Shown here: piece by piece, positions 44,118 through 47,316 of the stretch
Position numbering within the stretch: the stretch's first letter is position 1
How the letters are laid out: each line of letters starts with the position of its first letter
Assembly (NCBI GenBank): GCA_016200265.1
Contig: JACQFE010000049.1
Span: 22,277 to 86,276, forward strand
Source: Planctomycetota bacterium
GTDB lineage: Bacteria > Planctomycetota > Phycisphaerae > UBA1845
DNA length: 64,000 nt
Direction: 5' to 3'
The notes under the pieces: generated by a model
What the model was told of the DNA's origin: nothing
What the model saw: the letters and a program-made list of their open reading frames with translations, nothing else
Databases searched by the model: none
Made by a program: the position numbers and the translations under genes

Positions 44118-45149
44118 ATGAAAGAGAATTCAATAATTGACGAGTTCCTGAACTACCTGAAGTTCGAGCGGCACTTCTCTCCACATACGGCGAAGTGTTA
44201 TGCGGCCGACCTCGCACAGTTCTGTGCGTATCTGGTCGGCGACATGGGCGCCGCGAGCGGTCGACAGAACTTCACGTTTCCCACTTCGGCCGGTGCGGCT
44301 GCATCGCGAACCGTGACGGTTGCGGGATCGAGTGCGGCCACTGTTGGTGGCGCGGCGCAATCAGGCGGGATCGCCGTCGCCGTGCTTGAGGGGCTTCAAG
44401 GCAAGCTCCGCGACGCCGACACCGAACAGATTAAGTTATTTCTGACGTTCCTGAGCACGCAGAATTATTCGAAATCAACCATCGCGCGCAAGCTGGCCAC
44501 GCTGCGCAGTTTTTACAAATTCTGCCTGCGCCGCGGGCACGTCAAAACGCATCCGCTGGCGACAATTCGTACTCCGAAGCAAGAGAAACGCCTGCCGCGC
44601 TATCTTGAGATGGAACAGATCACCAAACTCCTCTCGACGCCCGAAGATCGCACGCTCCTGGGTTCGCGCGACCGAGCCATGCTCGAATTGCTCTTCTCCA
44701 CCGGCGTTCGCGTCAGCGAGTTGGTTGAATTGAACTTCGCCGATCTCGATCAGGAAGCCAGCGTCATTCGCGTTCGCGGCAAGGGCAAGAAGCAGCGCAC
44801 CGCGCCGGTCGGACCGACGGCGATGGCCGCGATTCAGAAATATCTCCAGCTTCGCCGCGTCGATGCACGCTCCGCGGCGTTCGATCAGCAAGCTCTCTTC
44901 GTGAACAAGCACGGTCAGCGGCTGAGCACGCGAAGCGTCCGCCGCAAGCTGGACAAGTATCTGACCGAGGCCGGCCTCGATCCTTCGATCAGCCCGCACA
45001 CGCTGCGTCACAGCTTCGCGACGCACATGCTCAACAGCCACCAAGCGCCTGAAGTCGGCCTACGACGAAGCGCACCCGCGCTCGTAATCCCCTCTCCTAC
45101 GACGAGGCGCGTTCGCACACTTATTCCCTCTCCCCTTGGGAGAGGTTAG
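44118..45149 (+). pseudogene. xerC: XerC/XerD-family tyrosine recombinase, catalytic C-terminal segment missing and frame shifted after nt 45038
   Basis: The N-terminal SAM-like domain (EFLNYLKFERHFSPHTAKCYAADLAQF) and the catalytic domain up to [14 protein letters not shown] are intact. The expected GADLR..ELLGH....TTQIYTH segment is absent. The reading frame then gives HQAPEVGLRRSAPALV..., while the +1 frame reads [15 protein letters not shown] (45040-45087), a typical XerC C-terminus. Confidence 0.7.
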
Positions 45150-45157
45150 GGTGAGGG
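45126..45157 (+). repeat. hairpin element ccctctcccc-ttg-ggagagg + ttagggtgaggg (family copy 1)
   Basis: cctctccc (45127-45134) pairs with gggagagg (45138-45145), followed by ttagggtgaggg. Related copies lie at 47284-47316, 49636-49675 and, inverted, at 49697-49733. Confidence 0.8.
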
Positions 45158-45464
45158 CTGCACTCTTTCCGAGCCGCGACCGTGAGGAAGCGGACTGCCG
45201 TCCCCCTTACCAAGGGCTGAGGGCGCCCAATGCGGGGAAGCCCGAAGCAGGGCGTTAGTCGCATCGCACAAATTCCCCCTGTGGGGCTGACTTTCCAGTC
45301 GGTCATTCTCGGCAACCAAATCCCAACGAAACACATCAAAGAATAACCATAGGTCACGCGGATTATTTGAGCCCACTGATTTGGCATTTCGTCATCAGTT
45401 TGGATAGAATCGCGCGTCAGTATTTCACCAAGGGGGGCCACGGTTCATTTCGGAAGGAGGGGTC

Positions 45465-47096
45465 ATGCGTCGAACGATTCTATCCGTTGTGCAGTTAGTA
45501 CATTCGGAACACTTGCTCCAAAGAGGTTTGGTTTGTGCGCTTCTTTGTTTCGCAGTGACACCCACTGGCATCGCAATTGCCGATCCGCCGCAAGGCTCGA
45601 TAATCGCGTGGGGGGACAACCTCTGGGGTCAAACCAATGTGCCCGCGCCCAACGCCGGTTTCATTGCTGCGGCCGCAGGCAGGTGTCATAGCCTCGGCTT
45701 AAAGGCCGACGACTCGGTCGTGGCCTGGGGGGAAAACTTCTCTGGTGAAACCATTGTTCCCGCGCCCAATAGCGGTTTCATTGCCGTGGCCGCGGGCTAC
45801 GTTCATAGCCTCAGTTTAAAGTCCGACGGCTCGGTCGTCGCGTGGGGGGACAACTACCACGGTCAAATCAACGTGCCCGCGCCCAATAGCGATTTCATTG
45901 CCGTGGCCGCAGGCGGGTTTCATAGCCTCGGCTTAAGGGCCGACGGCTCGATCGTGGCGTGGGGGGAGAACGACTACGGTCAAGCCAACGTGCCCGCGCC
46001 CAATAGCGGTTTCATTGCCGTTGCCGCAGGCTTGTACCACAGTCTGGGTCTGAAGGCCGATGGCTCCATTGTGGCATGGGGTGCCGGACAGGCGAACACG
46101 ACGGGATACCCGAACTACAGCCAGTCAATTGTCCCCACCCCCAACACCGGTTTCATTGCCGTGGCAGGGGGCGATTCTCATAGCATCGGTTTAAAGTCCG
46201 ACGGCTCGATCGTGGCGTGGGGATGTGGGGAGGAAAAAAATTTCGGGCAATGCAACGTTCCCGCGCCCAACTCGGGTTTCATCGCCGTAGCCGCGGGCGG
46301 GGGGCACAGCCTTGGTCTTAAGGCCGACGGTTCAATCGTGGCCTGGGGATGCGGATATCCATTTGACAATGGGCAGTGCGACGTGCCATTTCCGAACACA
46401 GGCTTCGTGGGCGTCGGCGCGGGCGAGCGATACAGTCTGGGTATCAGAGCAACTGGTGCTTGCTGCGACACCAACGGCGCTGACCGAGGCTGTACCGACA
46501 ACGTGACACAGGCCAATTGCACCGGCCTCGACAAGGTCTGGACCGAAAACGGCAACTGCGCTTCGACGCCCTGCGCCTGCATCCCAAATTGCCAAGGCGC
46601 GACCTGCGGCGATGACGGCTGCGGCGGAAGCTGCGGCACGTGCGATGACGGCAACGCTTGCAACGGCGTCGAGACTTGCGGTCAGAACCGCACCTGCCTC
46701 GCTGGCACCTCGCTCAATTGCGACGACAGCAATACGTGCAACGGCGTGGAAACCTGCGACCCGGAACATGGATGCCGTCCCGGAATCGCTTTGCACTGCG
46801 ATGATGCAAACTTGTGCAACGGCATCGAATCGTGTGATCCGCAAAGCGGCTGCCGGCCAGGAATACCTTTGAACTGCGACGACGGTCTGTTCTGCAATGG
46901 CCTCGAGTCTTGTGATCCGCAAGTCGGATGCGTTGCAGGCGTTCCGCCGTGCGACATGAATCATGAACACTGCGACGAATCCGAGCAACGTTGTGTTCCG
47001 AATGCAATTCCTACGGTTAGTCAATGGGGGCTGATAGTCGTCGCAGTTCTTCTGCTAACCGGCGCGAAGATTGCTTTCCGTCGGGCCAAGGCATGA
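45465..47096 (+). CDS. secreted RCC1-type beta-propeller repeat protein with Cys-rich repeats and an IPTL-CTERM-type sorting signal
   Basis: Signal-like N-terminus. Seven repeats of the type (I/V)[31 protein letters not shown]. Four modules CDDxNxCNG(V/I)E(T/S)CDPxxGCxxG. C-terminus: [29 protein letters not shown]. Confidence 0.8.
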
Positions 47097-47115
47097 AACA
47101 ACAAGCTCGGCCAAC

Positions 47116-47280
47116 TTCGATCAGCAAGCCTTGTTCGTGAACAAGCACGGTCAGCGGCTGAGCACGCGAAGCGTCCGCCGCAAGCTGGACAAGTATCTGA
47201 CCGAGGCCGGCCTCGATCCTTCGATCAGCCCGCACACGCTGCGTCACAGCTTCGCGACGCACATGCTCAACAGCTCGTAA
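47116..47280 (+). pseudogene. orphan duplicate of the xerC 3' coding segment (no 5' part, no catalytic Tyr region)
   Basis: 47116-47274 aligns to 44880-45038. The last 141 nt are identical and there are 3 synonymous differences in the first 18 nt. It encodes [15 protein letters not shown]...[14 protein letters not shown], followed by S-stop. Confidence 0.8.
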
Positions 47281-47283
47281 TCC

Positions 47284-47316
47284 CCTCTCCCCTCGGGAGA
47301 GGTCAGGGTGAGGGTG
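47284..47316 (+). repeat. hairpin element cctctccc-ctc-gggagagg + tcagggtgagggtg (family copy 2)
   Basis: cctctccc (47284-47291) pairs with gggagagg (47295-47302). It sits in the same position relative to the xerC fragment stop as copy 1. Confidence 0.8.

What the first reader, a model, noticed from the sequence alone, without database searches (positions are those of the whole stretch)
44880..47316. 159-nt direct repeat of the xerC 3' coding segment brackets a single-gene RCC1/IPTL-CTERM cassette
Nucleotides 44880-45038 lie inside the XerC-like ORF and encode [15 protein letters not shown]...[14 protein letters not shown]. They recur at 47116-47274. By manual alignment the last 141 nt are identical. 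The only differences are 3 substitutions in the first 18 nt (gct ctc versus gcc ttg), and all three are synonymous. Each copy is followed by a stop codon and the same hairpin element (cctctccc-N3-gggagagg plus yagggtgaggg). Exactly one complete gene lies between the copies, and its stop is 19 nt from the second copy. A duplicated target-gene 3' end flanking foreign DNA is the classic scar of site-specific integration, as established for tRNA/tmRNA-targeting islands. Here the target is a tyrosine-recombinase gene itself, and the insert carries no integrase of its own. The synonymous-only differences suggest the second copy once belonged to a functional homologous gene. Either outcome would be of interest: a small cassette-capture locus next to a recombinase gene (loosely integron-like, although I see no GTTRRRY core sites), or a recombination hotspot mediated by the hairpin element.
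Basis: partly seen in the sequence, partly recalled or inferred. Interest (0 to 1): 0.75.

Follow-up and report, generated by a model that had tools for sequence, protein, structure and literature searches.

The report
Scaffolding artefact at duplicated xerC end
The repeat is in the contig, but its exact limits and the apparently broken recombinase gene come from how this metagenome was assembled; the raw reads show an intact xerC, and what probably remains is an ordinary one-off duplication of the gene's tail around one inserted gene.

Summary
The repeat is present as described (44880-45038 / 47116-47274; last 141 nt identical). Its 3' limits are not biological. The identical stretch is exactly 141 nt. 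That is the largest k of MEGAHIT, which assembled this project before IDBA-UD scaffolding. Both copies therefore end where a MEGAHIT contig runs into a graph fork.

As written, the contig's xerC lacks 77 nt encoding the catalytic His/Tyr segment. A sibling MAG of the same population differs from the window exactly at the two junctions (45 nt and 19 nt). Contigs built independently from raw reads of two runs show an intact xerC 3' end, about 120 nt longer than in the window, directly upstream of hairpin D2 and the XRE gene. The reconstructed XerC (348 aa) passes NCBI's XerC cutoff; the contig ORF does not.

What is probably real is a roughly 320-nt direct duplication of the whole xerC tail plus hairpin on either side of the RCC1 gene. 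Forks in three read sets fit the second left flank.

I found no evidence of mobility. There is no integrase, tRNA or dif-like site. GC content is native. Nothing matches phages or plasmids. None of 100 related xerC loci carries a second fragment.

Low interest.

The parts
44118..45038 (+). xerC, first 307 codons. This is the end of inferred MEGAHIT contig P1.
   Evidence: Pfam Phage_int_SAM_1 plus Phage_integrase up to profile position 143/172. It is 77-92% identical to intact XerC of relatives. Logan contigs L027, L028 and L029 are 100% identical and all stop at 44927.
44880..44897 (+). a1: diverged left edge of copy 1, with 3 synonymous differences from a2.
   Evidence: 3 differences in 18 nt against 0 in 141 nt gives Fisher p=0.0012.
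44898..45038 (+). K: a 141-nt stretch identical to 47134-47274. It is the terminal 141-mer of contig P1.
   Evidence: Exactly 141 nt. The project used MEGAHIT v1.2.9 at default settings followed by IDBA-UD scaffolding. MEGAHIT contigs that meet at a fork share maxK-long ends, and the v1.2.9 k-list ends at 141.
45038..45039 (.). Scaffold join 1. 77 nt of xerC, encoding the catalytic His/Tyr segment, are missing here.
   Evidence: Intact homologues L001, L002 and L022 carry the segment. L021 lacks a further 45 nt at the same point. In the Logan graph K continues only into this missing segment.
45039..45087 (+). C1: the last 15 codons of xerC plus the stop ([15 protein letters not shown]). It is out of frame in the contig.
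   Evidence: It has 3 synonymous differences from C2 in Logan contig L024.
45059..45128 (+). 37-nt tandem near-duplicate spanning the xerC stop and the start of the hairpin. The second unit has diverged.
   Evidence: the repeat finder D8. The second unit plus D1 is about 82% identical to C2 plus D2. It is present in both MAGs.
45123..45157 (+). Hairpin element D1 (CCTCTCCC-N3-GGGAGAGG followed by TTAGGGTGAGGG).
   Evidence: Its fold is not clearly more stable than shuffled sequence (z = -1.96). No T-run terminator is present.
45158..45464 (+). Non-coding spacer with a promoter-like site at 45381-45410.
   Evidence: This is a consensus match only.
45465..47096 (+). RCC1-repeat / Cys-rich / IPTL-CTERM secreted protein. 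It is the single gene between the copies.
   Evidence: Pfam RCC1_2 x6 and IPTL-CTERM. It belongs to a very large family, and the listed homologues are at most 63% identical.
47116..47133 (+). a2: diverged left edge of copy 2, joined 19 nt after the RCC1 stop.
   Evidence: The Logan contig ends at 44927 place a fork at the last a1/a2 difference.
47134..47274 (+). K again: the terminal 141-mer of inferred MEGAHIT contig P2 (45039-47274).
47274..47275 (.). Scaffold join 2. About 120 nt are missing: the His/Tyr segment plus most of the C-terminal codons.
   Evidence: Logan L024 (SRR12113389) and L031 (SRR12113414) carry the missing sequence directly upstream of D2. L021 lacks 19 nt more.
47280..47314 (+). 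Hairpin element D2.
47669..48630 (.). Right flank: XRE-type HTH gene (minus strand) and a C-type lectin gene (48049-48630, plus strand).
   Evidence: Pfam HTH_3 and Lectin_C. This stretch is contiguous with the intact xerC 3' end in L024 and L031.

Best explanation
There are two layers.

(1) Artefact. The window is a scaffold of three MEGAHIT contigs: P1 (up to 45038), P2 (45039-47274) and P3 (from 47275). P1 (xerC 5' part) and P2 (RCC1 cassette) both run into the same fork of the k=141 de Bruijn graph. Each therefore ends with the same first shared 141-mer, which is why the perfect identity is exactly 141 nt long. The short repeat contig that should follow, carrying the rest of xerC, was skipped. 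IDBA-UD's scaffolder then butted the next contig on without Ns, losing 77 nt after copy 1 and about 120 nt after copy 2. In the organism xerC is intact (348 aa, with all catalytic residues).

(2) Underlying biology (inferred). The chromosome most likely reads xerC(intact) - hairpin D1 - spacer - RCC1 gene - 19 nt - second copy of the last 94 codons of xerC - hairpin D2 - XRE. That is a direct duplication of roughly 320 nt around one gene. I think the most likely origin is a single recombination event: either a Campbell-type single crossover of a circularised fragment carrying a xerC tail, or a tandem duplication followed by partial deletion, with later homogenisation of the core by gene conversion. 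It is then an inert scar, not an active cassette system.
For: Shown:
- The identical stretch is exactly 141 nt and unique in the window.
- The project used MEGAHIT v1.2.9 at default settings, then IDBA-UD scaffolding, with each filter assembled separately. L021 (JACOTE) belongs to that project.
- MEGAHIT contigs break at multi-path positions and share ends of length maxK. The v1.2.9 k-list ends at 141.
- Two MAGs, 100% identical over 10.9 kb upstream, differ exactly at both junctions. That gives four different right-hand boundaries after one fixed left boundary.
- Logan contigs from raw reads of two runs show K followed by the His/Tyr segment, the C-terminus, the stop, D2 and XRE. L024 is 100% identical to the window from 47273 to 59539. 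L031 overlaps it from inside the missing His/Tyr segment to window 49642 and differs only by 6 SNPs in the epimerase gene.
- The reconstructed XerC scores 340.4 bits against the TIGR02224 cutoff of 335.15. The contig ORF scores 255.7.
- Three Logan contigs from three runs stop at 44927. That is 30 nt past the last a1/a2 difference, as expected for a k=31 fork where a second left flank enters.
- Both MAGs place P2 between P1 and P3.

Against mobility:
- No integrase, tRNA or dif-like site.
- Native GC content.
- 0 of 100 related loci carry a second fragment.
Against: - I could not see reads.
- How IDBA-UD handles negative gap estimates (skipping bases of the next contig instead of inserting Ns) is my recollection of its code, not something I tested.
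- That 141 is MEGAHIT's default largest k is also my own knowledge. Searches support it but do not state that it is the default.
- I confirmed only L021 as a MAG of that project. The window's MAG (MBI3835208.1) was not tied to it by name.
- L024 runs unbranched from K through to C2. A 1:1 two-copy genome should show a fork at the first C1/C2 difference. So the link from the shared core into C1 is missing, weak or clipped in that run, and I never observed it directly.
- I could not retrieve a Logan contig for the cassette itself, because the RCC1 protein is not indexed.
Confidence: 0.62

Rival explanations
1. Graph loop without a chromosomal duplication. The population is a mixture. Most genomes have the empty site (xerC intact, directly followed by D2 and XRE). 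The RCC1 segment with its xerC-like ends belongs to a sub-population, another locus or a small circle. The scaffolder threaded it between P1 and P3.
For: In SRR12113389 the shared core has two entries but only one exit, and L024 shows no fork at the C1/C2 differences. L031 from another run shows a fork at a different place, inside the His/Tyr segment, which indicates strain heterogeneity. The left end of P2 differs between the two MAGs.
Against: Two assemblies deposited as separate MAGs give the same order P1-P2-P3, which presumably required paired-read links across both joins. The a2 junction (RCC1 3' end joined to codon F257 of xerC) must exist physically. P2 begins with a xerC tail, so some molecule carries xerC-like sequence on both sides of RCC1. 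A non-replicating 2.3-kb circle would not reach assembly-level coverage.
Confidence: 0.22
2. Genuine site-specific integration. A minimal cassette without its own integrase, mobilised in trans, integrated into the 3' end of xerC. It brought a replacement gene tail (C1 plus D1) and displaced the original tail (C2 plus D2) to the far side, as tRNA/tmRNA islands do.
For: After correction the duplicated unit runs to the end of the gene and includes the terminator-like hairpin, and xerC is restored. The core is identical and the arms are diverged (a: 3 differences in 18 nt; C: 3 in 49 nt), which resembles attL/attR.
Against: There is no integrase in or next to the insert. None of 100 related xerC loci shows a second fragment. 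GC content is native. Nothing matches in phages or plasmids. No near-identical copy of the cassette was found elsewhere. An identical core of about 230 nt is far longer than a typical att core and fits homologous recombination or gene conversion better.
Confidence: 0.1
3. The contig is correct as written. xerC is a real pseudogene lacking its catalytic tyrosine. Both copies were truncated by real deletions starting at the same base, perhaps at a hairpin-driven hotspot.
For: Both deposited MAGs lack the His/Tyr segment in both copies. All three differences between the MAGs lie within about 100 nt of a hairpin-like element.
Against: It needs four independent deletions with one identical left end. 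That end lies exactly 141 nt, the assembler's maxK, after the last copy-specific base. Read-derived contigs from two runs contain the supposedly deleted sequence and show no branch to the deletion junctions. This XerC is a conserved housekeeping gene that is intact in all relatives examined.
Confidence: 0.05

Closest known systems
De Bruijn-graph contig breaks at repeats, with maxK-long shared contig ends (as exploited by COBRA, PMC10914622), followed by an erroneous scaffold join
   Same: The identical stretch equals the assembler's largest k (141). Two contigs end in the same k-mer. Sibling assemblies disagree only at the joins. Read-level contigs carry the missing sequence.
   Different: Here the join left no Ns and produced in-contig deletions of 77 to 139 nt. 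The exact scaffolder behaviour is inferred, not demonstrated.
Campbell-type (single-crossover) insertion, or segmental duplication, leaving direct repeats of the homologous segment
   Same: Direct repeats of a few hundred nt made of host gene sequence flank the inserted DNA. The upstream gene copy stays intact and the downstream copy is a fragment lacking its 5' part.
   Different: No vector or replicon remnants are present. The donor is unknown. The core is perfectly identical while the edges differ, which requires later gene conversion or a very close donor.
Genomic islands integrated at the 3' end of tRNA/tmRNA or protein genes (att duplication that restores the target)
   Same: A duplicated 3' end of the target gene brackets the insert, and the target is restored.
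   Different: There is no integrase. Only one cargo gene is present. The composition is not foreign. The arrangement does not recur in 100 related loci. The identical core is much longer than usual att cores.
Integron gene cassettes
   Same: A single promoter-proximal gene sits next to a tyrosine recombinase gene.
   Different: The recombinase is an XerC orthologue (it passes TIGR02224), not an IntI: the integron-integrase models score 129 against a cutoff of 265. The repeat is coding sequence of the recombinase gene, not attC. The gene lies downstream of xerC on the same strand.

Membership tests
Assembly/scaffolding artefact at a repeat | The length of perfect identity equals the assembler's largest k, and contigs end there | tested here: met
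   141 nt exactly. MEGAHIT v1.2.9 at default settings plus the IDBA-UD scaffolder. Shared ends are maxK long and the k-list ends at 141.
Assembly/scaffolding artefact at a repeat | Independent assemblies of the same population disagree at the junctions and nowhere else nearby | tested here: met
   Window vs L021: 45 nt at 45038-45082 and 19 nt at 47275-47293. Otherwise identical, apart from one cluster at 49585-49655.
Assembly/scaffolding artefact at a repeat | Read-derived sequence contradicts the contig at the junction | tested here: met
   Logan contigs L024 (SRR12113389) and L031 (SRR12113414) carry the roughly 120 nt missing at 47274|47275.
Assembly/scaffolding artefact at a repeat | No reads span the contig's junctions | not testable with these tools
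   Raw reads cannot be mapped here.
XerC tyrosine recombinase (TIGR02224 equivalog) | Full-length match above the curated cutoff, including the C-terminal His and Tyr segment | tested here: met
   Reconstructed protein: 340.4 bits against 335.15, profile positions 2-293 of 295. The ORF as written in the contig fails: 255.7 bits, profile ends at position 253.
Integrative island with att duplication of a gene 3' end | Direct repeats derived from the target gene's 3' end flank the insert | tested here: met
   Corrected length is about 320 nt. That both copies lie in one genome is inferred.
Integrative island with att duplication of a gene 3' end | The element encodes an integrase or recombinase next to an att site | tested here: not met
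   The only complete gene between the copies is the RCC1/IPTL-CTERM protein.
Integrative island with att duplication of a gene 3' end | The same site is used recurrently, or an empty site exists in relatives with conserved flanks | tested here: not met
   0 of 100 related loci have a second xerC 3' fragment. Downstream genes are not syntenic in any relative, so no true empty site can be defined.
Integrative island with att duplication of a gene 3' end | Foreign composition, or similarity to known mobile elements | tested here: not met
   Cassette GC is 0.57-0.64 against 0.55-0.62 in the flanks. No plasmid or phage match.
Integron | IntI-type integrase | tested here: not met
   TIGR02249 scores 129.1 against a cutoff of 265, and NF011946 scores 92 against 435. 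The XerC model wins.
Integron | attC sites with R''/L''/L'/R' cores at cassette boundaries | not tested
   Only the hairpin elements were inspected. They are GC-rich 8-bp stems with no GTTRRRY cores visible.
IMEX (element integrated at dif by Xer recombinases) | dif-like 28-bp sites flank the insert | tested here: not met
   The dif core consensus ATAATRTAYATTATGT has no match with up to 3 mismatches in the window. The dif sequence of Phycisphaerae is unknown, so this test is weak.
Diversity-generating retroelement (template/variable repeat pair) | Differences between the repeats restricted to adenines of the template, with a reverse transcriptase nearby | tested here: not met
   The differences are T/C, C/T and C/G. 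None of the neighbouring genes I scanned is a reverse transcriptase.

The most novel reading that the evidence does not exclude
The xerC 3' end of this Phycisphaerae lineage is an attachment site for minimal single-gene cassettes without their own integrase. Such cassettes would carry a replacement xerC tail and be inserted and excised in trans by a tyrosine recombinase, conceivably XerC itself. The population would then be a mixture of filled and empty sites, which could explain the pattern of two entries and one exit in the read graph.
Probability: 0.07. Interest if true: 0.55.

Novelty: already known. Interest (0 to 1): 0.13.

Why it matters
It matters mainly as a caution. In MAGs made with MEGAHIT plus a scaffolder, a perfect repeat whose length equals the assembler's largest k, followed by an abrupt loss of homology, marks a contig end and not a biological boundary. 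Such joins can silently delete sequence without leaving Ns. Here the deletion turned a housekeeping recombinase into an apparent pseudogene, and NCBI annotated two truncated "tyrosine-type recombinase" proteins as a result. The residual biology is a one-off duplication of a gene tail around a surface-protein gene. That is of minor interest unless read data show active insertion and excision.

Tried and rejected
- Exact look-ups of the RCC1 protein, to fetch read-level contigs of the cassette itself, failed. The protein is not indexed. So I never saw the link from the shared core into C1.
- One look-up was wasted on a wrong minus-strand coordinate. The window's own MAG is not in the contig index.
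- The homologue search with RCC1 was swamped by the huge RCC1-repeat family and listed nothing near-identical.
- Exact partial XerC products from Logan contigs are not in the protein collection.
- A search of JGI metagenomes for the RCC1-to-copy-2 junction found nothing.
- DGR template/variable repeat idea: rejected. The substitutions are not adenine-specific, and the neighbouring genes scanned include no reverse transcriptase.
- Integron: rejected. The recombinase is an XerC orthologue and IntI models fall below their cutoffs.
- IMEX/dif: no dif-like site.
- tRNA/tmRNA target: none in the window. No Rfam family either.
- Hairpin as a widespread REP-like family: only 3 copies in 64 kb, none in related loci. 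Its fold is not clearly better than shuffled sequence.
- The recombinase hit next to xerC in L011 is a classical tRNA-associated integrase island and is unrelated.
- Excision between the two copies would not restore anything, because xerC is already intact in the reads.
- Synteny could not show which state is ancestral, because no relative shares the downstream genes.
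Full report
OBSERVATION. The repeat is in the sequence. The repeat finder gives 44866-45038 vs 47102-47274, 173 nt at 95%. The perfectly identical part is 44898-45038 = 47134-47274. It is exactly 141 nt and is the only repeat of 31 nt or more in the window. The 18 nt before it differ at three synonymous positions; 3 in 18 against 0 in 141 gives Fisher p=0.0012. One complete gene lies between the copies, at 45465-47096. It has RCC1_2 x6, a Cys-rich region and an IPTL-CTERM tail, and its stop is 19 nt from copy 2. A hairpin element follows each copy, at 45123-45157 and 47280-47314. A third, degenerate copy lies at 49699-49731 on the other strand.

The xerC written in the contig is broken. 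In both copies the Pfam Phage_integrase match stops at profile position 143 of 172. The true C-terminus, [15 protein letters not shown], sits at 45039-45087 but in another frame. Relatives are intact. These are L001 (77% aa), L002, and P0002/L022 (92% aa), and they read ...[36 protein letters not shown]...HPRS*. So 77 nt encoding the catalytic His/Tyr segment are absent after copy 1. Copy 2 jumps straight from ...HMLNS to the last codon and the stop.

TWO DEPOSITED ASSEMBLIES DISAGREE EXACTLY AT THE JUNCTIONS. The window's ORFs are MBI3835208.1 and MBI3835210.1, on a 98.6-kb contig. A second MAG, GCA_016178855.1 (JACOTE010000047.1, locus L021), carries the same locus. The two are 100% identical for 10.9 kb up to 45038. 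Then the window has 45 extra nt (45038-45082) and, after copy 2, 19 extra nt (47275-47293). The only other differences in 21 kb are 3 SNPs and a 6-nt indel at 49585-49655. Aligned, the four junctions share one left boundary (...CTCAACAG(C)) and have four different right boundaries. All four skip sequence that L022 contains.

READ-LEVEL CONTIGS CONTRADICT THE MAGS. Logan contigs are built per SRA run from the reads at k=31.
- L024 (SRR12113389, 12.5 kb) is 100% identical to window 47273-59539. It then continues upstream as D2, stop, C-terminus, His/Tyr segment and K. That is an intact xerC 3' end (NKHGQRL...[46 protein letters not shown]) directly upstream of the hairpin and XRE.
- L031 (SRR12113414) independently shows ...[30 protein letters not shown] followed by D2, XRE and the lectin gene.
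- So about 120 nt are missing from the window at 47274|47275 and 139 nt from L021. At 45038|45039 the losses are 77 and 122 nt.
- Within L024, K has a single continuation, into the missing segment. There is no branch to either deletion junction.
- L027, L028 and L029 come from three runs and carry the xerC 5' part. They are 100% identical to the window, and all stop at 44927. That is 30 nt beyond the last a1/a2 difference, which is what a k=31 fork with a second left flank produces.
- Adding the missing 77 nt gives a 348-aa XerC. It passes the TIGR02224 XerC equivalog: 340.4 bits against a cutoff of 335.15, profile positions 2-293 of 295. The contig ORF scores 255.7.

WHY THE CONTIG LOOKS THE WAY IT DOES. 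JACOTE is "NC_groundwater_36_Pr7_B-0.1um_57_54" of PRJNA640378. That project assembled each filter with MEGAHIT v1.2.9 at default parameters and then used IDBA-UD's scaffolding function (PMC7906910). De Bruijn assemblers break where there are multiple paths. MEGAHIT contigs meeting at such a point share end sequences of exactly maxK. The v1.2.9 k-list is 21...,119,141 (PMC10914622). That this list is the default is my own knowledge; k-min 21 with k-max 141 is widely reported. The identical stretch is exactly 141 nt and starts right after the last copy-specific base. Hence 45038 and 47274 are ends of two MEGAHIT contigs, P1 (xerC 5' part) and P2 (cassette). Both enter the same fork and both end with its first shared 141-mer. 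The short, double-coverage contig carrying the rest of xerC was not placed, and the scaffolder butted P2 and P3 on directly. From memory, IDBA-UD skips bases of the next contig when it estimates a negative gap, instead of writing Ns. That would explain the fixed left boundary, the variable right boundary and the absence of Ns. This step is inference.

WHAT IS PROBABLY REAL. Two left flanks enter the shared xerC core in three runs. Both MAGs order the pieces P1-P2-P3. P2 starts with a xerC tail (C1, which has 3 synonymous differences from C2) and ends with a xerC fragment (a2 plus K). The simplest genome is:

xerC(intact) - [37-nt tandem near-duplicate] - D1 - spacer - RCC1 - 19 nt - xerC codons 257-348 - D2 - XRE

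This is a direct repeat of roughly 320 nt with an identical core and slightly diverged edges. One point is unresolved. A 1:1 two-copy genome should make L024 fork at the first C1/C2 difference, and it does not. So the path from the core into C1 is weak, clipped or absent in that run. A mixture of filled and empty sites, or a mis-threaded loop, stays possible (rival 1).

TESTS OF THE MOBILE-CASSETTE IDEA. All were negative:
- No integrase or other mobility gene between the copies.
- No tRNA or tmRNA in the window and no Rfam family nearby.
- No dif-like site in the window.
- Cassette GC is like the flanks.
- No similarity to any plasmid or phage record.
- The RCC1 protein belongs to a vast family, and no near-identical copy was found elsewhere.
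- The cassette junction is absent from JGI metagenomes.
- Among 20 genome loci and 80 metagenome loci with related xerC, none has a second xerC 3' fragment. 32 of the metagenome loci have at least 3 kb of downstream sequence.
- Upstream synteny is conserved in L001 and L002 (isochorismatase-family gene, lipoprotein, small ORF). Downstream genes differ in every relative, so no ancestral state can be read off.
- The hairpin element is not found in relatives. It is not a T-run terminator, and its fold is not clearly better than shuffled sequence.

VERDICT. The truncated recombinase, the exact 159-nt limits and the stop plus hairpin after each copy are products of MEGAHIT contig ends joined by a scaffolder. 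What probably remains is an ordinary, unique duplication of the xerC tail around one surface-protein gene, with no evidence of mobility. Interest is low. The most novel reading still open is an integrase-less cassette using the xerC 3' end as an attachment site, with filled and empty sites coexisting. I put that at about 7%.

Noticed in passing
window 45059-45128: A 37-nt tandem near-duplicate spans the xerC stop codon and the start of the hairpin. The second unit plus D1 is about 82% identical to the C-terminus plus D2 region. It is present in both MAGs, so it lies inside a MEGAHIT contig and is probably a real, older slippage duplication.
   Followed up: partly
window 49585-49655 (near hairpin-like element 49699-49731): This is the only other place in 21 kb where the two MAGs differ (3 SNPs plus a 6-nt indel GGGCGG). 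Logan contigs L024 and L025 agree with the window. All three sites where the MAGs differ lie within about 100 nt of a hairpin-like element.
   Followed up: partly
L031:1-2455 (SRR12113414): This contig starts inside the xerC His/Tyr segment (at GGTCACCAG), which implies a fork at a different place from the other runs. It also carries 6 SNPs against L030 in the epimerase gene. A second strain is therefore present at that site.
   Followed up: no
L011:11046-12840: A translated tRNA gene signature (AQLDRASVYGTEGCRFESC) and a 464-aa tyrosine integrase lie just downstream of xerC in this relative. This is a classical tRNA-associated island, not a xerC-targeting element.
   Followed up: partly
window 44240-44420 (XerC residues about 42-100): XerC of this lineage has a Gly/Ala/Ser-rich insertion of roughly 55 residues inside the N-terminal SAM-like domain. 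It is variable in length and sequence among the Phycisphaerae homologues (P0002-P0004, L001, L002).
   Followed up: no
window 48049-48630: The C-type lectin domain protein downstream also ends in a hydrophobic tail plus a basic stretch (PAVSHLGLLVLTMLGLCVGAWTFSRRS), like the IPTL-CTERM tail of the RCC1 protein. These may be two neighbouring substrates of the same sorting system.
   Followed up: no
GenBank proteins MBI3835208.1, MBI3835210.1, MBI1825986.1, MBI1825988.1: The scaffolding deletions led to two truncated "tyrosine-type recombinase/integrase" proteins being annotated in each MAG (343 and 69 aa; 328 and 73 aa) instead of one 348-aa XerC.
   Followed up: yes
L022 (JGI Ga0074470_10819151): The contig with the closest intact XerC is 2236 nt long, the same number as the spacing of the two repeat copies in the window. 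I take this as coincidence; the contig is a linear fragment carrying different flanking genes.
   Followed up: yes
He et al. 2021 supplementary tables: Planctomycetes MAGs with the same 57% GC label are listed from two groundwater sites: Pr7 at Lower Lake, and Pr1 at Calistoga (a co-assembly). If the window's MAG is one of the Pr1 bins, the same population, 100% identical over 10.9 kb upstream and nearly so across the 21 kb compared, occurs at two separate sites.
   Followed up: no
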